This document shows, piece by piece, positions 1,198-49,699 of a DNA stretch of 64,000 bases. Position 1 is the stretch's first letter. Every line of letters begins with the position of its first letter. A program made the position numbers and the translations under genes. The notes beneath the pieces were generated by a model. That model ran no database searches, was not told the origin of the DNA, and worked only from the letters and a program-made list of their open reading frames with translations. The DNA is taken from NCBI GenBank assembly GCA_000004985.1, contig GG738857.1; one strand, written 5' to 3'. The stretch comes from Naegleria gruberi. Taxonomy: Eukaryota.

Positions 1198-2531
1198 ATG
1201 AGTATGGATATATTAGTTCGTGATCAAGGTTACTGGAAAGATCCTTCATCATTACTGAATAACAGTCGTTTCATTTCTGTTTACGAAATTCTCAATGAAA
1301 CAGTTTCGAATGACGATTTGAATAATTACAATAACGATAGACACATTCTAATTTCCNNNNNNNNNNNNNNNNNNNNNNNNNNNNNNNNNNNNNNNNNNNN
1401 NNNNNNCGTTATTTTATATGAACATGTTAAACTCAATTATTTCACTCTTCTGAAAAATGTAAAGATTTTACATTTAGAATGGAAAGACCCCAATGTGGAG
1501 GGTTTATAAATTTTGAAAATGTAAGCAATTTAACAAAACTAGAAGCAAAGAGTATTCCCAAATATATATATGCAAAATTCAACTCTTCTCTAAGGGAATT
1601 GCACCTGTCAATGTCATCTTTCAATCTAGACAATAATTTTGATAATTTGAAAAAATTGGAACTCATCAATGTTGGAAATTTATTAAGAGCCACCAGCACT
1701 ACATTTCCCTCCTTGGAATATGCCTATTGTACGAATTGTAATTTTTCCTTTAATGGAATTGAGTTTTTTTCCCAAAGCAAAAATTTGAAGAATTTGATTT
1801 TGAGGTGGTGTGATCTAGGAAAGGTGGAAACAGCCGAATTTCATTGTAGAGAATTGGAAGAATTGGATCTGACTACTGAGAATCCAATTAATCTTGATCT
1901 TTCGACATTGAGAGGACTAAACTTGAAGAAGCTCACAATTTATCCGAAATATATCAATAACCAAATAGATCTTTCCGTAATTGAGCAAATGGCAAGTTTG
2001 GAATATCTGAATTTAGGCGAATATTATGAAAATCTATCATTTTCCCAATTGACCAAATTGAATTATTTAGAATTTCGAAAAATTCGCATTTCAAAAAAGA
2101 ATCTAAAGGTAGAAAATTTGCTTTATGAAAATTTACTAAGAAATTGCGTCATTTACTTTAATAGTATAACCATTGAAGAGCATTGCATGCCATTTCCAAT
2201 TTTATTCGAAAGTGGAACTTTGGAAGGATCATTATTCGAATTAATTGCTTTGAAATTGAGAGAGCTCTGTATTGGTGTGAAAGGTGTGAAATTTGCCTTA
2301 ATGTCAGAGAAATTTATCTATGTTTCGTTTAATAGACAATCAAAGAATAAGCTATATTCGTATCCAAGTTTTATTCTATTCGAAACTGAAAGTCCGAACA
2401 GAATTTTGGAGCACAGAAGAAGTTTGGAAAAGAAACAAGAATTTTTTAATTTTACATCAAGTATCGAATATTTAATGCAACTGAAAAATTATTCTACTGT
2501 ACGAAATGGACGAAAGTGTGAAATTCAGTGA
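1198..2531 (+). CDS. LRR-like (F-box-associated type) protein, paralogue A. The N-terminal part is interrupted by the N-gap, and the two ORF pieces are probably joined by a roughly 42-nt intron near 1494-1535.
   Basis: ORFs 1198-1509 and 1479-2531. The 350-aa part aligns along its length with the ORF at 3346-4497 (FPSLEYAYCTNCNF vs FPSLEYVYCLDCDF), and both end in KCEIQ*. A GTTTAT...AACTAG intron would restore the frame. Confidence 0.5.
1357..1406. other. Assembly gap (N run, about 50 nt)
   Basis: Literal n characters in the sequence. Confidence 0.99.
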
Positions 2532-11313: not shown

Positions 11314-12236
11314 NNNNNNNNNNNNNNNNNNNNNNNNNNNNNNNNNNNNNNNNNNNNNNNNNNNNNNNNNNNNNNNNNNNNNNNNNNNNNNNNNNNNNNN
11401 NNNNNNNNNNNNNNNNNNNNNNNNNNNNNNNNNNNNNNNNNNNNNNNNNNNNNNNNNNNNNNNNNNNNNNNNNNNNNNNNNNNNNNNNNNNNNNNNNNNN
11501 NNNNNNNNNNNNNNNNNNNNNNNNNNNNNNNNNNNNNNNNNNNNNNNNNNNNNNNNNNNNNNNNNNNNNNNNNNNNNNNNNNNNNNNNNNNNNNNNNNNN
11601 NNNNNNNNNNNNNNNNNNNNNNNNNNNNNNNNNNNNNNNNNNNNNNNNNNNNNNNNNNNNNNNNNNNNNNNNNNNNNNNNNNNNNNNNNNNNNNNNNNNN
11701 NNNNNNNNNNNNNNNNNNNNNNNNNNNNNNNNNNNNNNNNNNNNNNNNNNNNNNNNNNNNNNNNNNNNNNNNNNNNNNNNNNNNNNNNNNNNNNNNNNNN
11801 NNNNNNNNNNNNNNNNNNNNNNNNNNNNNNNNNNNNNNNNNNNNNNNNNNNNNNNNNNNNNNNNNNNNNNNNNNNNNNNNNNNNNNNNNNNNNNNNNNNN
11901 NNNNNNNNNNNNNNNNNNNNNNNNNNNNNNNNNNNNNNNNNNNNNNNNNNNNNNNNNNNNNNNNNNNNNNNNNNNNNNNNNNNNNNNNNNNNNNNNNNNN
12001 NNNNNNNNNNNNNNNNNNNNNNNNNNNNNNNNNNNNNNNNNNNNNNNNNNNNNNNNNNNNNNNNNNNNNNNNNNNNNNNNNNNNNNNNNNNNNNNNNNNN
12101 NNNNNNNNNNNNNNNNNNNNNNNNNNNNNNNNNNNNNNNNNNNNNNNNNNNNNNNNNNNNNNNNNNNNNNNNNNNNNNNNNNNNNNNNNNNNNNNNNNNN
12201 NNNNNNNNNNNNNNNNNNNNNNNNNNNNNNNNNNNN
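11314..12236. other. Assembly gap (923 N)
   Basis: n run. The ORF-track entries translated as X across this span are artefacts. Confidence 0.99.
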
Positions 12237-18828: not shown

Positions 18829-19993
18829 NNNNNNNNNNNNNNNNNNNNNNNNNNNNNNNNNNNNNNNNNNNNNNNNNNNNNNNNNNNNNNNNNNNNNNNN
18901 NNNNNNNNNNNNNNNNNNNNNNNNNNNNNNNNNNNNNNNNNNNNNNNNNNNNNNNNNNNNNNNNNNNNNNNNNNNNNNNNNNNNNNNNNNNNNNNNNNNN
19001 NNNNNNNNNNNNNNNNNNNNNNNNNNNNNNNNNNNNNNNNNNNNNNNNNNNNNNNNNNNNNNNNNNNNNNNNNNNNNNNNNNNNNNNNNNNNNNNNNNNN
19101 NNNNNNNNNNNNNNNNNNNNNNNNNNNNNNNNNNNNNNNNNNNNNNNNNNNNNNNNNNNNNNNNNNNNNNNNNNNNNNNNNNNNNNNNNNNNNNNNNNNN
19201 NNNNNNNNNNNNNNNNNNNNNNNNNNNNNNNNNNNNNNNNNNNNNNNNNNNNNNNNNNNNNNNNNNNNNNNNNNNNNNNNNNNNNNNNNNNNNNNNNNNN
19301 NNNNNNNNNNNNNNNNNNNNNNNNNNNNNNNNNNNNNNNNNNNNNNNNNNNNNNNNNNNNNNNNNNNNNNNNNNNNNNNNNNNNNNNNNNNNNNNNNNNN
19401 NNNNNNNNNNNNNNNNNNNNNNNNNNNNNNNNNNNNNNNNNNNNNNNNNNNNNNNNNNNNNNNNNNNNNNNNNNNNNNNNNNNNNNNNNNNNNNNNNNNN
19501 NNNNNNNNNNNNNNNNNNNNNNNNNNNNNNNNNNNNNNNNNNNNNNNNNNNNNNNNNNNNNNNNNNNNNNNNNNNNNNNNNNNNNNNNNNNNNNNNNNNN
19601 NNNNNNNNNNNNNNNNNNNNNNNNNNNNNNNNNNNNNNNNNNNNNNNNNNNNNNNNNNNNNNNNNNNNNNNNNNNNNNNNNNNNNNNNNNNNNNNNNNNN
19701 NNNNNNNNNNNNNNNNNNNNNNNNNNNNNNNNNNNNNNNNNNNNNNNNNNNNNNNNNNNNNNNNNNNNNNNNNNNNNNNNNNNNNNNNNNNNNNNNNNNN
19801 NNNNNNNNNNNNNNNNNNNNNNNNNNNNNNNNNNNNNNNNNNNNNNNNNNNNNNNNNNNNNNNNNNNNNNNNNNNNNNNNNNNNNNNNNNNNNNNNNNNN
19901 NNNNNNNNNNNNNNNNNNNNNNNNNNNNNNNNNNNNNNNNNNNNNNNNNNNNNNNNNNNNNNNNNNNNNNNNNNNNNNNNNNNNNNNNNNNNN
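18829..19993. other. Assembly gap (1165 N)
   Basis: n run. Confidence 0.99.
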
Positions 19994-34051: not shown

Positions 34052-37000
34052 TTAGGCATTGTAAATTTTCTCTAAACGATCAACAATTTCTTGAATATTA
34101 GGACGTGTAGAAGGAACGGGAGACCAACTTTGTCTAATTAATTCAGTCAAATCGAAAATTCTTTCGTACTCATCTGGAGAATCGAATTCCTTACACCATT
34201 CTTTGCATTCCTCCAAATCTGTGAATGGAATAATTGGTCTCAAATTATTTTCACAAATTCCCTTGTGAAGTTGATAGGAAGATTCAACATTGCTTGGTTC
34301 TTCTAATCTTAATTTTTGTAAAACTCGTGAGTTTCTACTCATGTATGGATCGGTACATTCGAATAGTACTTGCCAAATGATAATGGAGAAACTGTAAATG
34401 TCGATTGCTCTGGCATCTTCACCAAGTATATCGCTATTACTGGAAATCATTTCAGGACTTAAATAGTAACAGGTTCCTATTTGACTTGTGACAGAAGTTC
34501 TGTAATTGGATAACATCTTGCTGAGACCAAAATCACAAAGCTTACAAACTCCAAATCTGTCAATCAAAATATTGGCAGGTTTCAAATCTCTATGCAAAAT
34601 TGTTGGAGATAATGTATGAAGATAGAGAATTCCATTAGCAACATTTGTCAAAATTTCCAATTTTTGAGTGAGAGAATACTGAACTGATTGATTTTGCATT
34701 TCTGTTACTAAATTATCCAAACTCTTCTCCAAACACTCCATAGCAATGAATCTCTTTGTAGGACTCGAAGAAATTCCGTAAAATGTGATAATGTTCGGAT
34801 GTCTTAATTTCGAGAGAATGATAGCCTCCATGAGGAAATCCTTTTCAGAAATATTCATGTTGTTCATGTCAAATACCTTGACAGCAATAATGTTATTCTT
34901 CCAACGAGTTTGGAATACAGAACCAATTCCTCCTGAACCCAATCTCTTGATTGGTTTGTCCATGTTTAATTGTTCAATTGGAATAATGAATGAAGAATTG
35001 TCAGAGTTGTTAATGTCCATAAATTCAAAGGTTTCTCCAACTTCAGTTTGAGATAGTAATCTTTCGTCCAACATTTGATCCATTTCAATAATTTTCTTTT
35101 GCTTTCTATACTTGGAAAAGAAGATTACCATTGTTAACATGGAGAAACAAAGTAACAATAAAACAAATATACTAAATCCAACAATGGTTCCAATCAAAAC
35201 ACTGTTATGTTCACATTCCTTTCCAAAGCTATTACTGCATTGACAAATATCTGGAGCAACACACAAATTTCCATTGCATGCATCAGCTCCTGATTTTCCA
35301 AAGCAGGTGACCATTCTGCAATCTGTTCCAATATATCCATAGGAGCAGGAGCAAGTATCTGGTTTAAGACATGTTCCACTAGAATTGGAGCATACAGCCG
35401 AACTAGAACTTGAAATGCCAAAACAAACTGGATACTGACATTGATTTCCACTATATTGAGGGGGGCAAGAACAGGTATCACTATCTAAACATATTCCATT
35501 TCCGCTACATACTTTGGAATCCAAACTGGTCCACTCAAAACATTTTGGAATGCATCTAGTTTTCTCTGGATTAAGCACATAATTATTTTCACAGAATGGA
35601 ACTAGTTGTTTCACTACATTATTCAACGAGTCAGATACGAATATCTTTCCAGTATTATCCACAAATGATACGCCTTCTGGCTTTGAGAGAGGAACTTCCA
35701 CTGCTGTCAATGATGATTCAATAAGATAACTGGCAACAATATCGACAACATCAACTGTTCCGTTACCAGCCATTGAATAAATATATCTCTGGCCATTAAA
35801 ATTAAACACTCTTCGTAATCTTCCATTATTCTTATCACAAAAAACAAATTCTTCATAAGTTGGTGGAAGTAACATTATACATGTTGGTGAATTGATATCT
35901 GCATTGATGGCAAGACCATTATCTCCAGAAAATCCAATATTTCCAGTTCCACAAACTGTACTAATTGTTCCATCTTTGGAAGAAATCTTTCGAATTCTAT
36001 GATTGTTGGTATCGCTGAAATAGATATCTTCATTTAGGGGTGAAACTGCAATTCCAGATGGAAATGCCACAGTAGCACTTGTAGCTGGACCATTCTCTCC
36101 ATGGAATCCATAATCTCCAGTTCCTGCAATTGTACTAATAACTCCAGTCATTCCATCAATCTTTCTAATAATATTATTCAAATTATCTGTTATGTAAATG
36201 TTTCCACTTTTTGCTCTGACCATGCTTAGAGGAATAGCAGATGATTGATTGGCTGGAATATTATCACCAAAACCTCCAGAAATGGTTGTTAGTAAATCAT
36301 CCTTAATTGAGTACTTTCTAATCTTGTTATTCGACGTGTCAGCAATATAAATTACTCCATTTCTATAGTCCAATGCCTTTGGATATTTCAATTTGGCAGA
36401 TCTTCCTCGTGATGGTTCTGTTTCTTGAACATCATTGGCTCCACCAATAATCGTCTTGATTATTTTAGAATCTGCCCATCTTATTCTGCTATTGATAGTG
36501 TCAGCTATTGCGATTGGTTTTGGTAATGCACTAGCATACTGATTTTCGGATGAACTATCAGCAGTAGAAACAACAGAATATGGGTGAAAGAATTTTGCCA
36601 TTAATGGATCACCATTGTCACCACTGAAACCAGCTCCGAGTTGTGAGTCACCTGCAGTTACTGAGTACATCACTGGTCCATCACCATCACTAGTAAATCT
36701 CAATCTCTTAATTCGATTATTGTAAGTATCTGCTACATAAAATGCAAAACATTTATCACATCCGTGCACATCATGAGGTGTATTATAGTATCTACTATCA
36801 CTGCTTGCAACTCCCATTCCAGATATGCTAAGGATAGGGAAAATGGAAGATTCGTTCAGAGTGGCATTGAATTTGATAAATCTAATTCTGTGATTTAAAC
36901 TGTCAGCAAAGAGTATACCTTGTTGTTTTACAGGAATGTTAACTATGGTCATTCCTCTTGGCTAATTAATTATCAATTGATTGGTTGGAAAAAATTGTTT

Positions 37001-39044
37001 CATTTCAACTTACCTCATTCAACAGAGATTGTGTTGCATCATTAGAATTTCCATTATATCCAAATTGATCTGGAATACCAGCTAGTATTGTTATTACATT
37101 GGTTTCTAGATTGATTTTTTTGATGGCATGTCTTCCAGTTTCTGAAAATATTAAATATCTCGCTCCAGTGCTCGTCACATAATAAGCAAGACCAGTTGGT
37201 TTCTTCACATTCTTAACAATTACCTTGACATTATTAGTATTATCAATGAGCTTGATATTGTTATTGTATGTGTCAGATACGAAAATACCCATATCTGTGG
37301 CAACAATTCCCTCTGGCTGATTGTAGGTGACTGAGGAGGCATTCATATAAGTGGGCATTCTTGCAGTATTGTTAGGTCTCAAAGCATTTCCCACCACCAA
37401 TGATATTTGTCTTGCTTTTGAATAAATATTTTGGGAAACTCTGATAATGGCATCACTGTAAACTCCACTTTGTTCATTCAAAATGTAATATTCAATTGTG
37501 TCACCATTGACCACTCCAACACTAAGAGACATTGGTTTGGATGACAGGGAATAGTTTAAAGAAGAATCAATATAAGTGGAAGACTCCAAATTGACAAATC
37601 CAGGATTAAGAGTACGAACAGTTCGAGTTGTCAAATCATAATATCTAACTGCTCCAAAGTTTGATTCACTAATAAATAGTACCTTCTCCAATTTGTTTGT
37701 ATTCTCATTTAAATGATAATCGAAAGTAAGACCAGTTGGCTGTCTCAATGGGAACTTTATCCCTTTCATCCCATCCACTCTCGGTATTTGATCGCCATTT
37801 GAAAATACTGGAGAAATCATCTTGGTTTCCAAATTGAGAATTTTGATATTTTTCGAGTCTACCATTAAAACAGACTTTCCATCTGGAGAAATTATAAAAT
37901 TAGAAGAAAAAACAAAATGACAATCAAATGCTTGAGTTATTCCATCTTTGCATTCTTCTGCTGAGGAATCACTTTTTCCTGCCAGTATTTCCAGCTTTAC
38001 GGATCCATCTGTATTATTGATGGTCAACCTTTTCAATAAGCTCGAAGTATCAGTGAAATAAACCATATCCAATTCGTTCATAGTATAAGCTGATAAATAA
38101 GAGGGACAACTATAATCATATTCATCATCATAAGGACAAGTGGACATTGAAACTGGCAGAAGTGGAAATTCATGCCCATACATTGTTGTAATATTACCAT
38201 TCTGGAGAATCTTTCTGAACCTATTGGATCCCCTTTCTGAAATGTAAATCTCATTCTTGTCATTTAGTGAAATACTGTTAGGGGACAATAATGTTGAACT
38301 AATTGCAGGAAATTCGCTATCTAGATAAACTCCAGCACCTCCACAAATTCTATAAACAGTACCATTTTGAATCTTTCTCAGAATATTCAAATCCAGAACG
38401 ATAACATTCGCCTCTTCCACAGAATTCACCACTTTCGGATAAACAACCATATCACTCAATGAAAGGAATTTGATTTCACTTGCTGGAATCACATCTGGGG
38501 CCGCAAAATTCAAATTACCTGCCAGAATTCCAGCAATATGGTCAATAATTCCTGTCTTGGTTCGAATCCTCCTAACAGAAAACAAATCCACCAAATAAAT
38601 CACATCATACAAGTTTCCACTACTTTCGTCCTTTTCTGCAACCACATACAAATGATTCACAAATATAAACGTTGCATTTTTCACTGGTCCTCCATTTCCC
38701 TCAATACCTCTACCAGGAGATTCACTTCCTGTAATAAATTCCTGTTGTCCAGTTACAAAATCCAATTTAGCAATGACAACCTGATTCACGACATAATAAA
38801 ACGTATTTTCATATTGAACGGAAGGAGCTAACCCAACAAGTGAAAAGGTTTTTGTTTCTAATTTTGATGGGTAATCTAATTTTCCAATAATTGATTCTGC
38901 TTGATATTTAACTTGTGATTTTAAGAATCGGATAGTTTCGTTCAAATTACACGTCGAAAAGTGAGAGAAAATCATCAGAAGGCTGATGAATAAAAACATT
39001 CGGCATAGTGAGAATCGATTCTGCCGTAAACATTGTGTTGACAT
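34052..39044 (-). CDS. Receptor-like protein kinase of about 1645 aa with 2 exons (39044-37014, 36961-34052). It has a signal peptide, two large NHL-repeat (beta-propeller) ectodomains, an EGF-like Cys-rich module, a TM helix and a C-terminal Ser/Thr-type kinase.
   Basis: Signal peptide MFLFISLLMIFSHFSTC. At least 8 NHL-like repeats (N..IRK/IRF motifs). Cys-rich segment CSGNGICLDSDTCSCPPQYSGNQC.... TM helix IGTIVGFSIFVLLLLCFSMLTMVIFF. Kinase motifs HRDLKPANILID, DFGLS and SPE. A 52-nt intron (GTAAGT...AATTAG, phase 0) joins ORFs 37005-39044 and 34052-36952. Confidence 0.7.
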
Positions 39045-39911
39045 TTTTTTTAAAATGTTCCTGCGGAGTTTATTGTAATGAAACTCTTTATTTCAATGTT
39101 ATTGGAAAATGGAAGATTAAATGGAAAGATTATTGGAAGTTGGATGGAGTAAGTTGTGATCTATTGGAAAGATACTTGTTTGATTGGCGGAAAACAACTC
39201 CTTGATGGACGGGAGCATTATTCTAAAGGGTTTAGTTTCGTTTAGGATATTTAAAGATTGTTGTGAATGAGTGATCTTTTGTGATGTATTCATGACAGTG
39301 TATTGTTGGGTAATTGGTGTGTGATTCTTTTTGGTGACCTTTCGAATAGAAGTTGAAGGTTGTGAATTTTCTTTCGTAAAGAATAGAACAGATTCATAGC
39401 TCTGTATTGAAACTTTCTTCTTTTTAATGACGCTGAACATTGATTTGTTTGGTGTGTACACAACTCGATCAAAATTATAGTTGTGGTCACCCACCATTTT
39501 ACTTTCGTTTCTATTGACTTTATTCGAAAGCTCACTGTGTTTAGTTTGTTGCTTGTCCATTTTTTCTGTGTGTGTTTATTCAAAATCCCAAGTCACCAAG
39601 AATCAATCTGAAAACACACAACAAATCTGTGGAAGAAATAAATCCATTTCCAGATGAAAAAATTTACCAAAATCTAAGAAAAATTAAAAAATACAAAATT
39701 GTAAATTGAAGACTACTTTAAAAGCCATGAAAATTGATGAGAGATTCTTTGTGAAATGATGATCTTACATCTTCGAATACAAAAAGATGGATTCGAATAA
39801 GATTATTGGAAAGTAAAAACTTTCTTGTAATGGAAAGAAATTGACCTATTTGTAAAGATAAATTCTTTATTCAAACTTTACAATAAAATTAATTGCGTTA
39901 TTCGAAACTAT

Positions 39912-40633
39912 TTATCTAACTCTGTAAACCTTAGTGAACTTCAAATAAGCAGAGTAATAACCCATATCTCTTTGACGAACTCCAGTTCTAGAATTTTCAG
40001 CAGAAACAACTTGATTTCCACCAACATAGATACCAACATGCTAAAATATTCGAAACATTATTCGAAAGAAATTAATTTTTTTGTGAAAATTCAATTCAAC
40101 TTACACCTGGTCTGAACAAGATATCACCAACTTCCATTGGTTGTCCAGTAACTTCATAGATATTTCCATTTGGATAAACTCCAGTAGAAGTTGGAACTGT
40201 CTTTCCTTGAGATTTGTAAGCAGTGTAAACTATTTATCCAATAATAAATAATAAAATGGAGAATTGATGCACGATATTCATGAATTATTGATCAATAATT
40301 CATATAATTTCCATTTCCAAAAATACGAAAATTTGTTAATTTTCTAAATATGGAAAGTGTAAAAAAAAACAAACCTAAACCGGAACAATCAAAACATGGA
40401 TTACCAAGTCTATTTTGTTGAGAGTAACATTTACCAACTTGTTGTTGAGCAAATCTGGCAGCATTGACAGCAGCTGGTGAAGCAGTTGAAATGGCATCTG
40501 ACATTTCGTATTCCTTTTCGAAAGTACCCAAGATGGATTCGATAACGGCATCAGATGGGATAGCACTAGCAACAGCAAAAGTAACCAACAATGCGGCAAC
40601 GATTGCGAGAAGAATGACCTTGGAAATTGACAT
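39912..40633 (-). CDS. Secreted NlpC/P60-family cysteine peptidase-like protein of about 170 aa with 3 exons (40633-40375, 40229-40105, 40040-39912)
   Basis: Signal peptide MSISKVILLAIVAALLVTFAVASA. The NlpC/P60 signature NPCFDCSGL|VYTAY...GDILFRPG|HVGIYVGGNQVVSAENSRTGV shows the Cys and His catalytic contexts FDCSGL and HVGIY. Introns of 145 nt (GTTTGT...AAATAG) and 64 nt (GTAAGT...TTTTAG). Confidence 0.6.
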
Positions 40634-41527
40634 TTTTTTTTAATGATTTTTTACGTAAAGTCGATTGACAGGTTGAATTTGCTGCAGAAAAAGCATGTTG
40701 AGAGATAGTTATAATCGTGTGAATTTAGAAGGTCATATAGTATTCAAAGTAATTGATTATGTTATTCGAACATTGAGGTTTACAACATTTGTAAATTTTA
40801 AAAGTACAATTTTTCACTTACAGAAACAAAATGCAATTAATCTTTTGAAAGAAGAGAATCATTACAGTATAGAATTGAATCAAGAAATTGTTGAACAACA
40901 AATTAATCAAGCTCACGTGAAAAAGTTTTTTTTTCAATTTTCTAAAAAATCGCAATTTCATCATCACATGAAAACTTGAGCTTGTGCTTGGTATTTCTTC
41001 TTCTATCAACAATAATGGTGGTGAATATAGGGAAGGGTGATGATTGTGGCGTATTGGTATAAAACTTCAACATAAGCTGTTATTGCTCATCAATAATTAA
41101 TAATTAATTAATAATAATAATTATGATGATTTGGAAGGCCTCCTGCTTTATTCCTTTGTGGAAGTTTTAATCCGATTACCAATTTGCAAATCTCTGAATG
41201 TTTTAAACAACCAACAAGATTATTTACATAATGAAGAGGGATATCATGTTGTTGTTGTTGAAGGATTTATTTCTCCTGTTCATCAGCCAACAACATTTTC
41301 AACAATTAGACATGCAAGGATTGAAAAACTCCCTCAAACAGCACTAATTTCAAACTATGGTGATGAAGACTGGCCAAATTCTTGAAATCTATTTGCTGGG
41401 TGGTATTTTTGCTCCAGAGCAAAAACCACATCAACGGACCTTTCAAACTGATCTGAGGAACAACAAATAACTTTAAACTTGATTGTTCTTACTATGATGG
41501 TCATGTAGAAAAGAACAATAACAAAAA

Positions 41528-41828: not shown

Positions 41829-44800
41829 TTATTATTTAATTTTCAAGAGTTTGGATTTCAAGAATTGAAGAGGTTGATCTGATTTGGCTCCTAACAATTC
41901 AAATTTAATCTTGACATCTCCTAAATATTCATCTTCTTGATGGAGAGATTCTGGTGAAGGAATGATTTCCTTCTTGATCTTGTAATATTTAGTTCCATTT
42001 TCAATTTCAGAGAAGGGAATGAAAATAAATCCAATAACCTCAGTTGTCAACATGTCTCTATCACTGACAGAGAATAATAATCCATGCCTTTGAATAATTT
42101 CAGAAACATTTCTAGAAGAAGTGAATTAATTTCCAATAGATTCAAATTGATAACTTACAATGTAAACGTTTCATTATTCCAACGAGGATTCAAATTCTTC
42201 TTGATAGTTTTGGTCTTGTAGGTTTTCTTCTTCTTTTTGGAAGTTAATCCCTTCTCATTTTCAATATTGTAAACCTTTACAAAACCATCACAAAGTCCAG
42301 AAATGGCATCCATGACAGGTAAATTCCTTGCTTCCACAATTTGAACTTTGAGTATCTTTGGAATTGGTGCTAAGAATTTAGTCAATTCGCCACCCATTTG
42401 CTTTCGTTGCAGTATTGGATTAATATGCCAAACCTTGCTAGAGTTATCATTGGAGAAGATGGACCTGATACTACAGAGGAACAAGTGAGAATTAATCTTG
42501 GATTGATTTTCACCTGCCTTGTAAGGAATTTGAGAAGCAGGAATTGTAAATCTAAATGCCTCACTCTTAGTTTCCATGTTGTAAACCTTGATGACAGCAT
42601 TAAGCTGAGACAATAATTCAATTACATCTTCAGGTGGAATTTCCTTCGAGTTAATCACAATATAAATCTTCAATAGAATGGAAAAGTGATAAACTGGAAT
42701 TGGCTCAGGTAACATGAAATCCTTGTTTCTTCTGAATGACAGACGAACCATAGATGGGCTCAATGCTTGAACCTTGCTATCATCAACAGAGTCGAGCATC
42801 ATGTAGCATTGAGTCTCATCATATTCTCCTTGCATTGGCCATTGTACTGATGTGGCAGTTGGCAAGGCTCTATCAATGAGAGCAGCAAACTTTGTACTGT
42901 CATCAGCAAGGTACTTTTCCACACTGCCAGATTTTGGCATTGAATTTGAGGAGCTCAGTACCTTGGTAACATCTCCCTTCCAATTATAACAAATTGCCTT
43001 CATTCTTACAATGGTATGATCGATAAGGTTTTTTGTTTTCTGGGCTTTTTTAGTTGTTCCAGCTGTGAGAGGACTCAAATCACTTCTAAATGGAACCTTT
43101 TTGGTTGTATCTTCCAATCTTACACCAAAGCAAATATATTGTGAAGGAGAAGGAATGGGAGCATGAGACAATCTTTCATTGGTCACTCTTTTATACTTGG
43201 AATCTCCCATTAGGAAGAGATCTGACAAGTAATAAACCCATGAATCATCTCTTTTAGTAACGGAGGAATGGTCTACATCTATTGGCATCCATTCACCAAC
43301 GTAGGAAAGTGACCACTCTTCCTTTTGCTTTCTTTCCATTTTGAAAGCCAACAGGTGTTTGTATCCCTCAAAGTCAGCCACCTCCTTTGGGCCATTGTTT
43401 TCATGATTTGAAATCTTGAAGATATCACATAAAGGAAGAGAGAATAATGGTTTTCTTGTAACTGGATCGATAACAAAAATGTTTCGAATAGTTTCATCCT
43501 CTTCCTTTTCGGCAACAGAGTTTCTTGGTAAATCATCTTCATCCTCAAACGTGACAGTTCTGTTATCCTCCCTAACCGCATGTTCTCGGTAGGAAACAAT
43601 ACAAAAGACAATTCCTGCCTTTTCCACCAATCGAGGAATGATTGCCATTGGATCGATTACGCCATCCAAAATTGGGCCTTCTCTTCTCAATTCCACATGT
43701 TGTTTCTTCAAGAAATAGGCTTCCTTATCAAATGTGAATACAGTGAGTTTAACAAGCAAGTCTGAAGGTTTACAAAGATGAGGATGACTAGCTCCTTGAA
43801 ATTGTAACATGATTGGGTGAGAATTTGAAAACTTGACAGGAAAATCATAAGTTGTAATCTCTTGTCCTTCCTGAACTACAGCAGATCTACAAAGGGAATC
43901 AGCTCCCTTATTGAAATGGTAGTGTCTTATGTGTCTCACAATTGTTGAAAAGCAAGTTTGTTTTGGTTTCTTCTCAACTGACATGTGCTCACCAAGGAAT
44001 TTCATCACAAAGGATTGGCCAGTGGCGTGTGAAACCTTCCCCCAGATGATGCAATTACTTGGATGAGGAGGCGTTGGGAAGTTTCTAATGTTAACTTCAT
44101 TGTTTGACTTGTCAATATAACTCAATCCAAACGAAGAATCAAAAAAGAGATAGCTTGAAATGTTATTCGAAGCAGTGTTGGTAAGGCCCATTCGAGGTAA
44201 TTCTGAATGTTCATATCCATCTCCGATCATTGATACGAAATAAATTTCATGAATATGTTTCAAGTTTTCCAGTTTGAGGTCAAAGTAATCGAACGATGAT
44301 TCGAATGAATTATTGTTTCCTACAACACCAACAGCCATGTGACTGGAAATTGTTGGCTCTCCAGAAACAGTATGGTTACTAAATCTCTTATCGTGACTCA
44401 CAACATCAACAACTCCTCCAACAGAATCCATCAAGACACAGAAATGATTAGTTCTAATTGGTCTTATTCCAATAGCTCTATTCTCCTCTGTTATTCTCAA
44501 CCTCAATTTTTCACTGTCCACAAATATGGAGTTGTTTGAACCTGCTGCCTTTGGAGGAGAATTACTTTTCACATCTCTAGTTTCAAGTACAATGTTATGA
44601 TTCTCTCTAATTGGCTCCAAAACTTTAGGTAAATGGAAAAGACAACTATCATTTGGTAGAGGGAATGGCTGACAAGATAGGGAAGAATTATTGATAGAGC
44701 TGAGAGGATCTGCTAAATCAACCTTGTACTCTTTTTTGAGTCTGTCATAGGATAAACTGAATAATGTTGTAATGGTATTGCTCTTATTCATTAGAGAGGG

Positions 44801-46507
44801 TTGATTCACTTCAATATTCAAGTTATGAATGAACTTGGAGGCTGAAACACGATAGGCATTCTCTTCATGAATTTCAGACTTGGTAAATACCATATCATTC
44901 TCAAAGGAGACTTGAATATCACCTTCCAAACAGTTCAGGTCACCTTCTAAGAAGAATATCAGTTTGGTATATTCGCCAAATGGGTTATCACTAAGATAGT
45001 TACTGATTCGCTTTGATTTAGCAACATCATATTTTGTTAACATGACCTTATCGATGGTTTTTTTACAAAATTTGAAATCTTCCTTCTGTACAACCTTTTC
45101 CTCTTCATCATCAGATTGCTTTTGAACTTTCGTTGTTGACATTGTAAAGCTATTCAATAAATTATTGAAATCTGCTGCATAGCCATGGGTAAGATTTTGG
45201 AAAATTCCACTAGATTGATAATTTGTTTCATCATTGGTTTTCCAATCTCTGACTTGGATATTGAATGATTGTTTCAATTTTTCATAGGCCATGTCATCCT
45301 TCACATTTCTTGTATGCATCTCATCTACAATATTTGATAGTTTTTGATGTTTCTTTTCTGGTTGTTTGTTTTCCTCCTCATCAGCATTGGATTTTCTGTT
45401 TGTTCTCAATACAAAACCTCCAATAGTGGTCTTTCCTGATGAAGAAGTTGTTGTTGAGTTAGCTGATGTACTGTTATTGAGTGATCTCATTCCTAAATAC
45501 TTTCTTTGGGAGGAATCAGATAGCAAATCATTCAATTGACATTCCAATGCAACAAGTGGTGTTTGAGTGGTTGTAAGTGCAGAGTTTGCTTTTGCAGATT
45601 TCTTTGATTTACGACCACCACTTTCTTCCACATTATTTACAACTGCTTGATCCAATTCCTCAACATTTTCCATTCCTTTAAGGTTTAGAATATTTTCAAC
45701 ACAAAGTAAACTCTTTGCTTGCTCCACCGTAATGATATCAACAAGTTTTCCTTCAGAATTCAAGACGAAACAACCAACAGAGAGTGGAATCTTTTCAGTT
45801 TCCTTCTTTGATGAACCAGTCTTGGAAACTTGCATAGAAAAGTATCTACCCATTCCTCCCTGCAATAAGGCATTCCTATTTCTTAACATTTCGAATGAGA
45901 ATTTTACCGAGAGAGCCGATGAAGTCAAATTATATTCATCCATATCAACTATTTGATCATTATTATACGAAACTGACATTCTATTATTCGCATTCTTGGC
46001 ACTATTAATCCACAAGGAAGATGATGGAATAGTCACCAAACTGGGAGAATCCTTCTTTCCAATTCTTGACAAATTTCTCTTTTTAATATTTGCAGAGTTA
46101 CTAGGTTTCAATTCGTGTGGTGTTGTATCATAAACACCACTATTCGAACCATTTCCAGAACCATTCGATCTATTACTTCTAGCCGAAAGAGGAGACTTGG
46201 CCAATCTGAAACTCTTTCTATTCTGCTCACTTCCTGGTGAATTTGGAGGTGGCATTCGAATCCTCATTGAAGAGGCACCATTTGGTGATCTTGGCGAAAC
46301 AGGAGGAGAACCTACACTCTGATCATCCTGCACGGCTCGAATATTTGCTGTAGAAGTTGCCTGTGTTGTATGATGATGATTATTTGTTGCTGGTGATGAC
46401 TGATTGGAACTATTACTAGATCCCGAGGTTGATAAATTGTCATCCTCGTTTGTATCTTCTCGATTGTTTGGTTGTTTGTTGGAGGAGAGAGAGGCAGGTC
46501 TACTCAT
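41829..46507 (-). CDS. Large protein of about 1520 aa with a C-terminal C2 domain, 2 exons (46507-42159, 42110-41829). The Ser/Asn-rich N-terminus and the central region are of unknown family.
   Basis: A 48-nt intron (GTAAGT...TTCTAG, phase 2) joins ORF 42155-46507 to ORF 41832-42053, completing a C2 fold (KVQIVEARNLPVMD...NPRWNNETFTL|LNVSEIIQRHGLLFSVSDRD...IGFIFIP). Confidence 0.6.
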
Positions 46508-46939: not shown

Positions 46940-49699
46940 TTGGAATCTGTTAAACAAAATGGATATGCATTTAAATATGCCGATGAGTTATTGAAAAAAG
47001 ATGAAGAGTTTATATTGGAAGTTGTTAAACAAGATGGATTGGCAATTAAACATGCTGATTCATCATTACAAAAAGATAGAGAAATTGTATTGGAAGCTGT
47101 TAAACAAAATGTATATGCACTTAAATATGCAGATTCATCATTGAAAAAAGATAGAGAAATTATATTGAAATCTGTTAAGAAAAATGGATTGACACTTGAA
47201 TTTACTGATTCATCATTGAAGAAAGATAGAGAAATTGTATCGGAAGCTGTTAAACAACATGGATTGGCAATTGAGTTTGCTGATTCATCATTTAAAAAAG
47301 ATAGAGAAATTGTATTGGAAGCTGTTAAGCAAAATGTGTATGCAATTGAATTTGCTGATTCATCATTGAAGAAAGATAGACAATTTGTACTAGAAGCTGT
47401 TACGAAAAATGGATTAGTACTTGAATATGCTGATTCATCATTGAAGAAAGATAGAGAATTTGTATTAGAATCTGTTACGAAAAATGGATATGCATTTCAA
47501 TATGCTGTTTCATCATTTAAAAAAGATAGAGAAATTGTATTGGAAGCTGTTAAACAAAATGGAGCAGCGCTTAAATATGCTGATGAATCAGTTAAGGGAG
47601 ACAGAGAAATTGTATTGGAAGCTGTTAAACAAAATGGATTGGCATTTAAATATATTTATTCATCATTGAAAAAAAATAGAGAAATTATATTGGAAGCTGT
47701 TAAACAAAATGGATCAGCACTTAAACATGCTGATTCATTTTTGAAGAAAGATAGAGAAATTGTATCGGAAGCTGTTAAACAAAATGGATTGGCACTTCAG
47801 TTTGCTGATTCATCATTTAAAAAAGATAGAGAAATTGTATTGGAATCTGTTAAAAAAAATGGATCAGCACTTGAATATGCTGATTCATCATTTAAAAAAG
47901 ATAGAGAATTTATTTATTTGCTATTTAAATTGAACAAAGAAAATGCAAGAAACTTCTCACCATCTATATCCAAAACCATTGAAGAATGCTTAAATATTCA
48001 GAGAAAGCTGTCAAGCAATATAACTGAACAATACTCCAAAATATTTATGGATGAAAAGGATTTATATTATGCTATTGAATTAACAAGTCTCTTTAATCCA
48101 ACACCAAAAGGTACAATATTCAATTTCAATTCTATCTATACACCAATATTTATTGAAAAATTGATTATTTTTCAAATATTGAAACAAATGAACCATTCAG
48201 AATTGTCTAATGATATTATTGCTCTTATTGATTTACAAAGTACCAAAGCTAACTATTATTTATATTGTTTCAGATTGGACAAATTTCTTGAAGATAATCC
48301 CTGTCAATCAACAAGAATGAAAGATTTGAAGAATATTGTGGAACAAGTTGCAACAAACTTTGAAACGTCATTTTATACAAAACAGGAAATTAATGAAATT
48401 ATGATTTTTGCCAACAAGTGGTTTGAAAATGAGCAAACATTTGAAAATTACAAACAAATAATTTGTAAATATAATGAGCTGAGAGGAGATTTATCAAAAG
48501 TATTCAAATCTCTTAATTATTTCTATAATTATTTCAAAAATGATTATGATTTCATTTCAGTATTAGGATATGGAGGTGAAGGTGTTGCATTCAAAGTATT
48601 TCATAAAAGTAGTAAATCATTAAGGGCTTTAAAATTGAAATATGACCCAGAGGAATCTGAAGAATCAACAAAAGAAACCATTAATTTATTGAAAAGAACA
48701 GACATTGAAGGAAAGATCAAATGTTTTGATTGTGAAATTATTCAAAATCATTTATATTCAGTGATGGAACTTGGAGAGGAATCATTATCAAATTACATTT
48801 CAAGAAATAATGAAAGTGAAATTTATAGAAATGGATTCATTATTAAGGAAAAACTAATTGAAATTCTTGATATATTTATCAAAGTATTGAACTCAGTTCA
48901 ATCAATTCATGATCACAATATTTTACACAGAGATTTAGATCCTCAAAATATTGTCAAAGTTCAAGATTTATACAAAATTATTGATTTTGAAACATCAAGA
49001 GTGATCAAGACAGGTAATTCAATTACAATTGCTCGTGGAAAGTTTGCATACATGTCTCCTGAAGTTTCACATGATAATTATTCTGATGATTTATTGAAAA
49101 GTGGTAATGATGAAAAGCTTGCTCACAATGTTGGACAAATTACCATTTCATGTGATATATTTTCATTGGGATGTATTTTGTTGAAATTATTAACCAATTG
49201 TCCTTTGCAACTATGTTCAACATTTCTGAATGATTCAGATGTCTCTAAATATAATGATAATTACTTGTATTTTAGTGGACATGGAAAATATTTCTATACA
49301 GTTGTGACAACAACAGAGGGAGAAATGAAATTACATTATGCAATTGAAAAACTAATCAATGAAACAATTAATCCAGATTTAGGAGTGAATAACATATTGA
49401 TTAGAAGCATTATTAGCATGATTCAAAGAGATTCATCAAAAAGATTGGATTGTTATTCTCACAAGTTAACAATTGAGAATATTTTGAAATTTTTGAAAGG
49501 AGAAATCAAAGATATCACTTTCAATATTGAAAAACAAGTTGGAGAATTGAAGAAAATATCACCATTAAGAAGTTACTCTCAACTTGTAGAGGAAAATACC
49601 AAACTATTAGAAAGAATTAAATTATTGGAAGAGAACTCTTTATTGGAACGAATTAAAATGTTGGAAGAGGAAATAATAAATCTAAAAACAGACCAATAA
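46940..49699 (+). CDS. DUF4116-repeat protein with a C-terminal atypical protein kinase domain, copy 1. The long ORF is intact from the TTG at 46940, but no in-frame upstream ATG is available.
   Basis: About 11 tandem 29-aa DUF4116-type repeats (LEAVKQNGLALxYADSSLKKDREIV). The kinase part has GYGGEGVAFKV, HRDLDPQNIV, DFETSR and YMSPEV, followed by a C-terminal coiled coil. Confidence 0.6.
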   Translation: MESVKQNGYAFKYADELLKKDEEFILEVVKQDGLAIKHADSSLQKDREIVLEAVKQNVYALKYADSSLKKDREIILKSVKKNGLTLEFTDSSLKKDREIVSEAVKQHGLAIEFADSSFKKDREIVLEAVKQNVYAIEFADSSLKKDRQFVLEAVTKNGLVLEYADSSLKKDREFVLESVTKNGYAFQYAVSSFKKDREIVLEAVKQNGAALKYADESVKGDREIVLEAVKQNGLAFKYIYSSLKKNREIILEAVKQNGSALKHADSFLKKDREIVSEAVKQNGLALQFADSSFKKDREIVLESVKKNGSALEYADSSFKKDREFIYLLFKLNKENARNFSPSISKTIEECLNIQRKLSSNITEQYSKIFMDEKDLYYAIELTSLFNPTPKGTIFNFNSIYTPIFIEKLIIFQILKQMNHSELSNDIIALIDLQSTKANYYLYCFRLDKFLEDNPCQSTRMKDLKNIVEQVATNFETSFYTKQEINEIMIFANKWFENEQTFENYKQIICKYNELRGDLSKVFKSLNYFYNYFKNDYDFISVLGYGGEGVAFKVFHKSSKSLRALKLKYDPEESEESTKETINLLKRTDIEGKIKCFDCEIIQNHLYSVMELGEESLSNYISRNNESEIYRNGFIIKEKLIEILDIFIKVLNSVQSIHDHNILHRDLDPQNIVKVQDLYKIIDFETSRVIKTGNSITIARGKFAYMSPEVSHDNYSDDLLKSGNDEKLAHNVGQITISCDIFSLGCILLKLLTNCPLQLCSTFLNDSDVSKYNDNYLYFSGHGKYFYTVVTTTEGEMKLHYAIEKLINETINPDLGVNNILIRSIISMIQRDSSKRLDCYSHKLTIENILKFLKGEIKDITFNIEKQVGELKKISPLRSYSQLVEENTKLLERIKLLEENSLLERIKMLEEEIINLKTDQ

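What the first reader, a model, noticed from the sequence alone, without database searches (positions are those of the whole stretch)
39912..40633. Bacterial-type NlpC/P60 peptidoglycan peptidase encoded by a three-exon eukaryotic gene with a signal peptide
The protein carries the canonical NlpC/P60 catalytic contexts (FDCSGLVYTAY ... GDILFRPG ... HVGIYVGGNQ) that are characteristic of bacterial cell-wall hydrolases. The gene nonetheless has two spliceosomal introns (145 and 64 nt) and a eukaryotic signal peptide. One intron splits the conserved GDxxF/HVGIY block. This makes it a candidate ancient horizontal acquisition that has since been domesticated. It may function as a secreted bacteriolytic enzyme.
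Basis: partly seen in the sequence, partly recalled or inferred. Interest (0 to 1): 0.65.

Follow-up and report, generated by a model that had tools for sequence, protein, structure and literature searches.

The report
Bacterial-origin cell-wall peptidase gene in Naegleria
This is a real amoeba (Naegleria gruberi) gene with two introns, already in GenBank as an uncharacterised protein, that encodes a small secreted enzyme of a bacterial cell-wall-cutting family; it was probably taken from bacteria long ago and is most likely used to digest bacterial prey, a kind of gene already documented in other protists.

Summary
On the minus strand, 40633..39912 holds a three-exon, 513-nt CDS with GT-AG introns of 145 and 64 nt. 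It encodes a 170-aa protein identical to Naegleria gruberi XP_002679621.1 (NAEGRDRAFT_65315, "predicted protein").

The protein scores 48.8 bits on Pfam NLPC_P60 (cut-off 23). Its model folds as an NlpC/P60 papain-like domain, and it has a signal-peptide-like N-terminus.

The gene sits among typical eukaryotic genes, and its GC3 matches theirs. It belongs to a eukaryote-only clade (92% NJ bootstrap) that includes:
- N. fowleri
- Willaertia
- an Acrasis-like heterolobosean
- the oxymonad Blattamonas

Bacterial and viral relatives reach only about 40-45% identity. An old bacterial acquisition followed by vertical descent is therefore supported.

The introns are younger than the acquisition. Willaertia and N. 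fowleri have none in the domain, and a close Naegleria relative has a different set.

Purifying selection (dN/dS about 0.2) argues that the gene is functional.

The catalytic Cys83 and His129 are intact. The usual third residue (His) is Ser141, and a clade-specific Glu143 lies two residues downstream.

The most likely role is a secreted or phagolysosomal peptidoglycan DL-endopeptidase. Activity, expression and localisation are untested.

This is a new member of a known kind, of moderate to low interest.

The parts
40375..40633 (-). Exon 1 (259 nt, residues 1-86 plus the first base of codon 87). It encodes the signal peptide, the acidic pro-segment, the first helix of the domain and the FDCSGL motif.
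   Evidence: The spliced product is identical to XP_002679621.1.
40562..40633 (-). Signal-peptide-like segment, residues 1-24 (MSISKVILLAIVAALLVTFAVASA|IP).
   Evidence: Kyte-Doolittle 12-residue maximum of 3.52, with an A-x-A motif before the predicted cleavage site. It forms a low-confidence N-terminal helix (3-22) in the model. 11 of 14 clade members have the same kind of N-terminus. This is heuristic, as no SignalP was available.
40490..40561 (-). Acidic pro-segment, residues 25-48 (IPSDAVIESILGTFEKEYEMSDAI, pI 4.05), ending in the clade-wide [A/S]-D motif.
   Evidence: One search gives the pI (the domain has pI 9.5). One search shows helix 28-45 at pLDDT about 65. Searches show the motif conservation. 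A propeptide role is an inference.
40385..40387 (-). Codon TGT for the catalytic Cys83 (FDCSG).
   Evidence: This column is invariant in 125 of 125 aligned sequences. It lies at the start of helix 83-92 in the model.
40230..40374 (-). Intron 1: 145 nt, GTTTGT...ATAG, phase 1, 21% GC. It contains a 24-nt perfect palindrome at 40280-40303.
   Evidence: It is absent at this site in L004/L005, N. fowleri and Willaertia.
40105..40229 (-). Exon 2 (125 nt, residues 87-128), ending in GDILFRPG.
40041..40104 (-). Intron 2: 64 nt, GTAAGT...TTTTAG, phase 0, between Gly128 and His129. It contains two TTCGAA copies.
   Evidence: It is absent in N. fowleri and Willaertia. L004/L005 have an intron 2 nt away (phase 1) plus two more.
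39912..40040 (-). Exon 3 (129 nt, residues 129-170 plus TAA). It encodes HVGIYVGGNQVVSAEN and the C-terminal helix and strand.
40038..40040 (-). Codon CAT for the catalytic His129.
   Evidence: This column is invariant in 125 of 125 aligned sequences. It lies in strand 129-135 of the model.
39996..40004 (-). Codons TCT GCT GAA for Ser141-Ala142-Glu143. Position 141 is the canonical third triad position (His + 12).
   Evidence: At position 141 the bacterial sequences have H 79, D 22, A 3, E 3, S 2, Q 1, N 1, and the eukaryote clade has S 3, N 5, H 6. Glu143 occurs only where 141 is S or N. The 8er5 alignment puts His opposite Ser141.
39866..39871 (-). AATAAA hexamer starting 40 nt downstream of the stop codon; a possible polyadenylation signal.
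   Evidence: This is a sequence match only, and its function is inferred.

Best explanation
The locus is the N. gruberi nuclear gene NAEGRDRAFT_65315.

Origin: it descends from a bacterial P60-type NlpC/P60 (MEROPS C40) peptidoglycan endopeptidase gene. That gene entered a eukaryote before Naegleria, Willaertia and Acrasis-like heteroloboseans diverged. It has been inherited vertically since, its composition has become fully host-like, and in the N. gruberi lineage it has acquired two spliceosomal introns.

Product: a 170-aa pre-pro-protein.
- A signal peptide (residues 1-24) takes it into the secretory/endolysosomal route.
- A short acidic segment (25-48) precedes a basic 13-kDa single-domain papain-like peptidase.
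- Cys83 is the nucleophile and His129 the general base.
- Cys69-Cys80 probably form a disulfide.

Inferred function: it cuts the stem peptide of bacterial peptidoglycan, most likely the gamma-D-Glu-diamino-acid bond as in its characterised relatives. This would happen in phagolysosomes or outside the cell, helping the bacterivorous amoeba kill and digest prey.

What is shown: gene structure, family membership, fold, eukaryotic integration, clade distribution and purifying selection.

What is inferred: secretion, propeptide processing, the disulfide, substrate and bond specificity, and the biological role.
For: - Gene structure and identity to the public model.
- Family: PF00877 scores 48.8 bits against a cut-off of 23.
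- Best matches among solved structures are NlpC/P60 hydrolases: C. innocuum 8er5, Cg1735, MepS/Spr, CwlO, LytE and RipA.
- AF2 model: domain pLDDT is about 97, with Foldseek TM up to 0.81 per target.
- D82, C83, S84, G121, D122 and H129 are invariant across 123 homologues.
- Eukaryotic context and host-like GC3.
- The eukaryote clade has 92% NJ bootstrap support. Its internal topology (Willaertia, (N. fowleri, (N. gruberi, L004))) matches the species relationships.
- Members lie on contigs with Spt16, Arf, SNARE and F-box genes.
- The Spt16 on L007 is 58% identical to that of Acrasis kona.
- The best identity is 41% in 185,579 prokaryote genomes and 45% in IMG/VR.
- dN/dS is 0.22 over the domain against L004.
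- Signal-peptide-like N-termini occur across the clade, and the acidic pro-piece contrasts with the basic domain.
- Positions 69 and 80 are mostly Cys/Cys or Gly(Lys)/Ser across the clade, though P0113 and P0114 carry Gly69 with Cys80.
- Functional precedent: laterally acquired NlpC/P60 enzymes of Trichomonas are DL-endopeptidases with a Cys-His-His triad of the same spacing, and they are used against bacteria (PMC6299479). Expanded NlpC/P60 genes are proposed for prey digestion in Trepomonas (PMC4967989).
Against: - No transcript, proteomic or enzymatic data were available, so expression, secretion and activity are unproven.
- The third triad position is Ser141, found in only 2 of 111 bacterial sequences sampled. 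Activity could therefore be reduced or altered.
- The protein lacks any cell-wall-binding module (SH3b, LysM) such as many bacteriolytic NlpC/P60 enzymes carry.
- The N. fowleri orthologue carries a 10-nt frameshifting insertion. The gene is therefore dispensable in at least one relative.
- The bacterial sister group is unresolved, because the tree is NJ on 114 columns.
- The direction of transfer is inferred from the overwhelmingly bacterial distribution of the family, not from a rooted tree.
Confidence: 0.72

Rival explanations
1. Catalytically weakened or inactive derivative. The protein would be a peptidoglycan- or muropeptide-binding pseudo-enzyme (a lectin, sensor or opsonin) rather than a hydrolase, as with RipD-type inactive NlpC/P60 proteins.
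For: - The third triad residue is Ser141 instead of His/Asp/Glu.
- NCBIfam gives a weak hit to the inactive RipD model among others (21.7 bits, far below its cut-off of 215).
- The N. fowleri copy is frameshifted, and its annotated product lacks the Cys.
Against: - Cys83 and His129 and their DCSG and GHVGIY contexts are strictly conserved in all 14 clade members.
- dN/dS is about 0.2.
- The third position varies naturally in active enzymes. For example, RipA has C383/H432/E444 as named in PDB entries, and Asp is common in bacteria.
- Glu143 co-occurs with Ser or Asn at 141 and lies two residues along the same strand, so it could substitute.
Confidence: 0.12
2. The enzyme acts on a non-peptidoglycan substrate of the amoeba itself. 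Candidates are a gamma-glutamyl or isopeptide bond in a cyst-wall or surface component, or it could be an acyltransferase or phospholipase like the LRAT/H-REV107 branch of the superfamily.
For: - The NlpC/P60 superfamily includes eukaryotic acyltransferases (established knowledge: Anantharaman and Aravind 2003, cited in PMC4967989).
- The protein has no wall-binding domain.
Against: - The protein matches the P60-type family PF00877 in the non-permuted Cys-then-His order. The permuted YaeF/C92 model scores below its cut-off (18.6 bits against 27).
- All nearest solved structures are peptidoglycan hydrolases.
- Secretory targeting and a basic mature domain fit an antibacterial role.
Confidence: 0.08
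3. Artefact: bacterial contamination or a mis-assembled bacterial fragment in the Naegleria scaffold, with the 'introns' being annotation patches over frameshifts.
For: - The domain family is overwhelmingly bacterial.
- Annotation pipelines do invent introns to bridge frameshifts, as in the N. fowleri model and possibly the Willaertia model.
Against: - Both introns have GT-AG ends and 20% GC against 35-41% in the exons. Their removal gives a gap-free alignment to homologues.
- GC3 is 0.23, like the neighbouring genes.
- The gene lies inside a 573-kb scaffold between clearly eukaryotic genes, with no assembly gap nearer than 18829-19993.
- Independent assemblies of related eukaryotes carry orthologues.
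- No prokaryote genome has a relative above 41% identity.
Confidence: 0.01

Closest known systems
Trichomonas vaginalis NlpC/P60 peptidoglycan hydrolases (NlpC_A1/A2, B3; PDB 6bim, 6biq, 8ev4; PMC6299479, PMC10461829)
   Same: - Bacterial P60-type NlpC/P60 domain in a protist, laterally acquired.
- A signal peptide is predicted.
- Papain-like fold with Cys...His and a third residue 12 positions after the His.
- A demonstrated DL-endopeptidase used against bacteria.
- Foldseek probability 1.00.
   Different: - Only 23-26% identity, which is more distant than many bacterial enzymes. This points to an independent acquisition.
- The Trichomonas A-type enzymes carry two SH3b domains and a Cys-His-His triad. 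The Naegleria protein is single-domain with Ser at the third position.
- The Naegleria gene has introns.
- No biochemical data exist for the Naegleria protein.
Bacterial single-domain C40 DL-endopeptidases (e.g. C. innocuum CI_01448 domain 8er5, B. subtilis CwlO/LytE, E. coli MepS/Spr, M. tuberculosis RipA/RipB)
   Same: - Same Pfam family and fold.
- Conserved DCSG and GHVGIY motifs.
- 32% identity to 8er5 over the whole domain, TM 0.80-0.81 per target.
   Different: - Clade-specific sequence signatures: YSQ instead of Y-x-W-G-G, P-T-x-T-G-x-YP, (S/N)AEN, an extra C-terminal helix and the YR(P/V) ending.
- Eukaryotic gene structure, a signal peptide and an acidic pro-piece.
- Ser141 in place of His/Asp/Glu.
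House dust mite LytFM 14-kDa bacteriolytic NlpC/P60 enzyme (PMC5586350) and NlpC/P60 expansions in the free-living diplomonad Trepomonas (PMC4967989)
   Same: - Bacterial-type NlpC/P60 genes in bacterivorous or microbe-associated eukaryotes.
- LytFM is also a small (about 14 kDa) single-domain secreted enzyme with one catalytic Cys and a putative disulfide.
- The Trepomonas genes are proposed to be for prey cell-wall digestion.
   Different: - These are different lineages and presumably different transfer events. Their sequences were not compared here.
- The heterolobosean clade is older and spread over several genera.

Membership tests
NlpC/P60 (Pfam PF00877; MEROPS C40), P60-like branch | Profile HMM score above the curated family threshold | tested here: met
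   48.8 bits, E = 7.7e-13, cut-off 23, covering residues 80-158. A profile search retrieves 2,911 PF00877 proteins at E <= 1e-6.
NlpC/P60 (Pfam PF00877; MEROPS C40), P60-like branch | Catalytic Cys at the N-terminus of a helix, in a D-C-S-G context | tested here: met
   Cys83 lies in FDCSG. D82, C83 and S84 are invariant in the 123-sequence alignment and in all 125 sequences of the tree alignment. Helix 83-92 is present in the model.
NlpC/P60 (Pfam PF00877; MEROPS C40), P60-like branch | Catalytic His on a beta-strand downstream of the Cys (non-permuted order), in a G-H-V-G-I-Y context | tested here: met
   His129 is invariant and lies in strand 129-135. The permuted C92 model scores below its cut-off.
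NlpC/P60 (Pfam PF00877; MEROPS C40), P60-like branch | Third polar triad residue (His, Glu, Asp, Asn or Gln) about 12 residues after the His | tested here: inconclusive
   The position is Ser141. Bacteria have H 79, D 22, E 3, A 3, S 2, Q 1, N 1, and the eukaryote clade has H 6, N 5, S 3. Glu143 accompanies S or N. Whether Ser or Glu143 fulfils the role cannot be decided without coordinates or an experiment.
NlpC/P60 (Pfam PF00877; MEROPS C40), P60-like branch | Papain-like alpha+beta fold | tested here: met
   The AF2 model has mean pLDDT 87.6, with the domain at about 97. There are 54 PDB matches at E <= 1e-3, and all those listed are NlpC/P60 domains or proteins containing one. TM normalised by target reaches 0.81.
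NlpC/P60 (Pfam PF00877; MEROPS C40), P60-like branch | Hydrolysis of peptidoglycan stem-peptide bonds | not testable with these tools
   This needs recombinant enzyme and muropeptide analysis.
Functional bacterium-to-eukaryote gene transfer | Gene physically integrated in a eukaryotic chromosome | tested here: met
   - It has GT-AG introns.
- It is flanked by eukaryotic multi-domain genes.
- It lies on a 573-kb scaffold.
- Its GC3 is host-like.
Functional bacterium-to-eukaryote gene transfer | Phylogeny and distribution: a narrow eukaryotic clade within an otherwise prokaryotic family | tested here: met
   14 eukaryote-type sequences are monophyletic at 92% NJ bootstrap among 111 sequences taken as bacterial (most are unnamed metagenome proteins). 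The bacterial sister group is not resolved, the tree is distance-based and no ML tool was available.
Functional bacterium-to-eukaryote gene transfer | Retention under purifying selection in related species | tested here: met
   Orthologues are present in Willaertia, N. fowleri and a Naegleria-like metagenome species. dN/dS is 0.22 for the domain against L004, with dS about 1, near saturation. The N. fowleri copy is frameshifted.
Functional bacterium-to-eukaryote gene transfer | Expression of the transferred gene | not testable with these tools
   No transcript data are held, and no paper in the library cites the accession.
Trichomonas NlpC/P60 clades A/B | Close sequence relationship, and (for clade A) tandem SH3b domains | tested here: not met
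   Identity is 23-26% by Foldseek. These proteins are absent from the phmmer PDB hits at E <= 1e-3. No SH3b domain was found by Pfam.

The most novel reading that the evidence does not exclude
The gene represents a previously undescribed, ancient family of secreted NlpC/P60 enzymes. The family spans the Heterolobosea and is shared with an oxymonad, possibly by eukaryote-to-eukaryote transfer. It would have three unusual features:
1. A re-wired catalytic centre: Cys-His with the canonical third His replaced by Ser or Asn, and a compensating Glu two residues downstream.
2. Synthesis as a precursor processed at a conserved [A/S]-Asp site. In some lineages (Willaertia, Acrasis-like) the same precursor also carries arrays of cationic amphipathic, antimicrobial-peptide-like segments.
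3. An unusually active site of intron gain around the catalytic His, including 8- and 10-nt micro-exons in a sister species.
Probability: 0.3. Interest if true: 0.5.

Novelty: new member of a known kind. Interest (0 to 1): 0.33.

Why it matters
If the enzyme is active, it adds Heterolobosea to the list of bacterivorous eukaryotes that took a peptidoglycan endopeptidase from bacteria and turned it against them. The list already includes Trichomonas, Trepomonas, Acanthamoeba and mites.

- The family is old enough to be shared by Naegleria, Willaertia and Acrasis-like amoebae.
- It is also a dated natural experiment in intron gain. The same foreign gene has 0, 2 or at least 3 introns in close relatives.
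- It offers a small (13 kDa), single-domain, naturally Ser/Glu-substituted NlpC/P60 for studying what the third triad residue does.
- The apparent frameshift in the N. fowleri copy is a minor lead for comparing the pathogen with its harmless relatives.

None of this overturns current understanding.

Tried and rejected
- Paralogues in the window: tblastn of the protein against all 64 kb found only the gene itself.
- Introns as copies of a mobile "introner": blastn-short of both introns against the window found only chance 11-18 nt matches and an internal 24-nt palindrome in intron 1.
- Viral vector: the IMG/VR scan gave at most 45% identity, no closer than the best bacterial homologues found (up to 44-49% identity in the protein searches).
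- Recent bacterial donor: the scan of one genome per prokaryotic species gave at most 41% identity, from Cutibacterium, Nocardioides, Arthrobacter, Streptosporangiaceae, Treponema and Archangium. The top named protein-database hits were myxobacterial MAGs. No donor can be named.
- Literature:
  - No paper in the library combines Naegleria with this NlpC/P60 gene or cites its accessions.
  - The Trichomonas paper's supplementary tables do not list Naegleria.
  - The Naegleria pangenome and Willaertia genome papers mention peptidoglycan degradation only generically.
- A Biopython NJ bootstrap timed out and was replaced by a numpy implementation.
- The very low GC at 18-20 kb is only an assembly gap of Ns.
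Full report
**1. What is in the sequence**

Reading the minus strand from 40633 gives an ATG-initiated ORF that runs into a stop after FDCSGL. Splicing out two segments restores the reading frame:
- 40374..40230 (145 nt, GTTTGT...ATAG)
- 40104..40041 (64 nt, GTAAGT...TTTTAG)

The result is a 513-nt CDS encoding 170 aa and ending at TAA 39914-39912. Intron 1 is phase 1 inside codon 87, directly after FDCSGL. Intron 2 is phase 0 between Gly128 and the catalytic His129. Exons are 35-41% GC and introns about 20% GC.

The spliced product is identical, end to end, to the Naegleria gruberi protein XP_002679621.1 / EFC46877.1 / NAEGRDRAFT_65315 / UniProt D2V8X3. It is annotated only as "predicted/uncharacterized protein" and lies on a 573-kb scaffold.

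No transcript data were available. Comparative evidence supports the junctions. With the introns removed, the protein aligns without gaps across both junctions to intron-less homologues in Willaertia, N. fowleri and bacteria.

**2. Family and fold**

- Pfam NLPC_P60 (PF00877) scores 48.8 bits (E = 7.7e-13, cut-off 23). The permuted C92 family and Amidase_5 stay below their cut-offs.
- phmmer against PDB sequences finds only NlpC/P60 hydrolases. The best is the C. innocuum domain 8er5 (E = 3.9e-9), followed by Cg1735, BCE_2878, Spr/MepS, CwlO, RipA-type proteins and LytE.
- An AlphaFold2 model built on 123 homologues has mean pLDDT 87.6. Residues 50-170 are at about 97, and the N-terminal 49 residues at 63-73.
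- Foldseek against the PDB returns 54 hits at E <= 1e-3, and all those listed are NlpC/P60 domains or proteins containing one. They include the Trichomonas enzymes 6biq, 6bim and 8ev4, with TM up to 0.81 per target.
- D82, C83, S84, G121, D122 and H129 are invariant in the alignment.

**3. The catalytic centre is not fully canonical**

The third triad residue lies 12 residues after the His. Examples are His246 in Trichomonas NlpC_A1 (Cys179-His234-His246) and Glu444 in RipA (the PDB entries for the C383, H432 and E444 mutants).

In the N. gruberi protein this position is Ser141, and the 8er5 alignment puts His opposite it. The distribution in my sample is:

| Group | Residue at position 141 |
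|---|---|
| Bacteria (111 sequences) | H 79, D 22, A 3, E 3, S 2, Q 1, N 1 |
| Eukaryote clade (14 sequences) | H 6, N 5, S 3 (N. gruberi, its close relative L004, Willaertia) |

Within the clade the motif is either H-A-A-N or (S/N)-A-E-N. A Glu at 143 therefore appears exactly where the His is lost. The two positions are two residues apart on one modelled beta-strand (138-144), so Glu143 may have taken over the orienting role. That is an inference, because I could not inspect coordinates.

Positions 69 and 80 are mostly either Cys/Cys or Gly(Lys)/Ser across the clade, although P0113 and P0114 carry Gly69 with Cys80 plus extra Cys residues in an insertion. This suggests a disulfide, as expected for a secreted protein. 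This too is an inference.

**4. Targeting and architecture**

- Residues 1-24 (MSISK, a 17-residue hydrophobic core, A-S-A|IP) look like a signal peptide. 11 of 14 clade members have the same kind of N-terminus, and the others look like truncated ORF calls.
- Residues 25-48 are acidic (pI 4.05) and modelled as a low-confidence helix.
- The remaining 13.3-kDa domain is basic (pI 9.5).
- There are no N-glycosylation sequons, and Pfam detected no wall-binding module. I saw no transmembrane or retention signal in the sequence.

**5. It is a eukaryotic gene, not contamination**

- The flanking ORFs are typical eukaryotic multi-domain proteins: an NHL/EGF/protein-kinase receptor at 34052-36952, an NHL-repeat protein at 37005-39044, a 1,450-aa C2-domain protein at 42155-46507 and a repeat-plus-kinase protein at 46940-49699.
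- GC3 of the gene (0.23) lies within the range of these neighbours (0.18-0.33).
- The nearest assembly gap is 20 kb away.

**6. Relatives and history**

A single-sequence search found Willaertia magna (54% identity) and a metagenome protein (53%), followed by unnamed metagenome proteins and bacterial C40 peptidases at 44% or less.

A profile search found more eukaryote-type relatives:
- N. fowleri FDP41_012196
- Blattamonas nauphoetae BLNAU_14136 (an oxymonad), at 49% identity
- several metagenome proteins at 45-73% identity

Context shows that the metagenome members are eukaryotic:
- P0112 lies next to a Longin/Synaptobrevin SNARE and to F-box and RGS genes.
- P0226/P0109 lies next to Spt16, Arf and uS15. 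That Spt16 is 58% identical to the Spt16 of Acrasis kona, against about 35% to other named eukaryotes (fungi, animals, plants, oomycetes) in the hit list. The organism is therefore an Acrasis-like heterolobosean.
- L004 and L005 carry spliceosomal introns.

In a neighbour-joining tree (125 sequences, 114 columns, 500 bootstraps) the 14 eukaryote-type sequences form one clade with 92% support. Within it, N. gruberi + L004 (85%) and the three Naegleria sequences (69%) have bootstrap support; Willaertia joining them is the best-tree topology but is recovered in only 42% of replicates. That topology matches the organismal relationships. The bacterial sister group is unresolved.

The best identity is 41% among one genome per prokaryotic species and 45% among IMG/VR viral contigs. 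There is therefore no recent donor and no sign of a viral vector.

dN/dS between N. gruberi and L004 is 0.22 over the domain, with dS about 1.

The simplest history is one old transfer from a bacterium into a heterolobosean ancestor, followed by vertical descent under purifying selection. The position of Blattamonas could reflect a second transfer between eukaryotes or from a related donor. My tree cannot decide this.

The Trichomonas enzymes are much more distant (23-26% identity). They were not in my tree, so I infer independence from that distance. It agrees with the Trichomonas authors' finding that their genes were acquired independently of the other eukaryotes they sampled.

**7. The introns are young**

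| Species / locus | Introns within the domain |
|---|---|
| Willaertia | none; the domain is encoded contiguously |
| N. fowleri | none at either N. gruberi site |
| L004 / L005 (about 70% identical to N. gruberi) | none at site 1; three introns of 38-44 nt within 22 nt of coding sequence around the catalytic His |
| N. gruberi | two (145 nt and 64 nt) |

In L004 and L005 the three introns leave micro-exons GACATGTTGG (10 nt) and TATYTATG (8 nt). The micro-exons are 100% and 88% identical between the two contigs, while the introns are 72-82% identical with indels. The first of these introns is phase 1, 2 nt from N. gruberi intron 2. Intron content therefore changed after the transfer and within the genus.

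**8. Function**

The shown facts (family, fold, intact Cys and His, secretory-type N-terminus, selection) point to one most likely role. So does the precedent of laterally acquired NlpC/P60 DL-endopeptidases that Trichomonas uses against bacteria (PMC6299479), and the precedent of NlpC/P60 expansions proposed for prey digestion in Trepomonas (PMC4967989). That role is a secreted or phagolysosomal peptidoglycan endopeptidase that helps a bacterivorous amoeba break down prey walls.

Bond specificity, activity with Ser141, processing of the acidic pro-piece and localisation are all inferred.

**9. Novelty**

The gene model is public. The category is established: bacterial NlpC/P60 genes in protists, mites and fungi. 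I found no paper that mentions this gene or a heterolobosean NlpC/P60 family. It is a new, undescribed member of a known kind. The modest extras are its clade-wide age, the altered third residue and the intron turnover. I score interest at 0.33.

Noticed in passing
L004:1295-1429 and L005:1246-1385 (ENA metagenome contigs of a Naegleria-like species): The orthologue has three introns of 38-44 nt packed into 22 nt of coding sequence around the catalytic His. They leave micro-exons of 10 nt (GACATGTTGG) and 8 nt (TATCTATG / TATTTATG). The micro-exons are conserved between the two contigs while the introns diverge. Splicing them out gives a 169-aa protein colinear with the N. gruberi one.
   Followed up: partly
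L002:4001-4532 and L003:4001-4532 (N. fowleri GCA_008403515.1): The N. fowleri orthologue carries a 10-nt insertion (ATCCAACTTT at L002:4299) that shifts the frame. Deleting it restores an intact 173-aa colinear ORF. The public model instead splices out 103 nt, including the catalytic Cys. It also has YDCSS instead of FDCSG. This is a possible pseudogene in the pathogen; both contigs are identical here.
   Followed up: partly
L001:5001-6237 (Willaertia magna); also proteins P0109 and P0110: The annotated 475-nt 'intron' of the Willaertia homologue reads on in frame as repeats of Lys-rich amphipathic peptides (for example KFFKKLGKLFKKALPYLKAGVKEYV and FKFGKLLKKIGKVGLKLGKAYL). Each repeat is preceded by an acidic x-[S/A]-D spacer. 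A single 1-nt frame change would join the repeats to the NlpC/P60 domain. The same [A/S]-D motif precedes the domain in most clade members, including N. gruberi (EMSD|A). This may be a polyprotein precursor combining antimicrobial-peptide-like units with the hydrolase.
   Followed up: partly
Whole window; cluster at 39341-40770: The palindromic hexamer TTCGAA occurs 67 times against 18.4 +/- 4.6 expected from shuffles (maximum 31). Its extended consensus is WTTCGAAW. Nine copies lie around this gene, two of them inside intron 2. The meaning is unknown.
   Followed up: partly
window 40280-40303 (inside intron 1): A 24-nt perfect palindrome, ATGAATTATTGATCAATAATTCAT.
   Followed up: no
window 1357-1406, 11314-12236, 18829-19993: Runs of N (assembly gaps of 50, 923 and 1,165 nt). 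They explain the apparent very low GC near 11-12 kb and 18-20 kb in the composition profile.
   Followed up: yes
window 34052-36952 (-), 37005-39044 (-), 46940-49699 (+): Large intron-free ORFs: an NHL-repeat/EGF-like/transmembrane/protein-kinase receptor, a second NHL-repeat protein, and a protein with many tandem KQNG/DREIVLEAV-type repeats followed by a kinase domain. The descriptions are from reading the translations only, with no domain search run.
   Followed up: no
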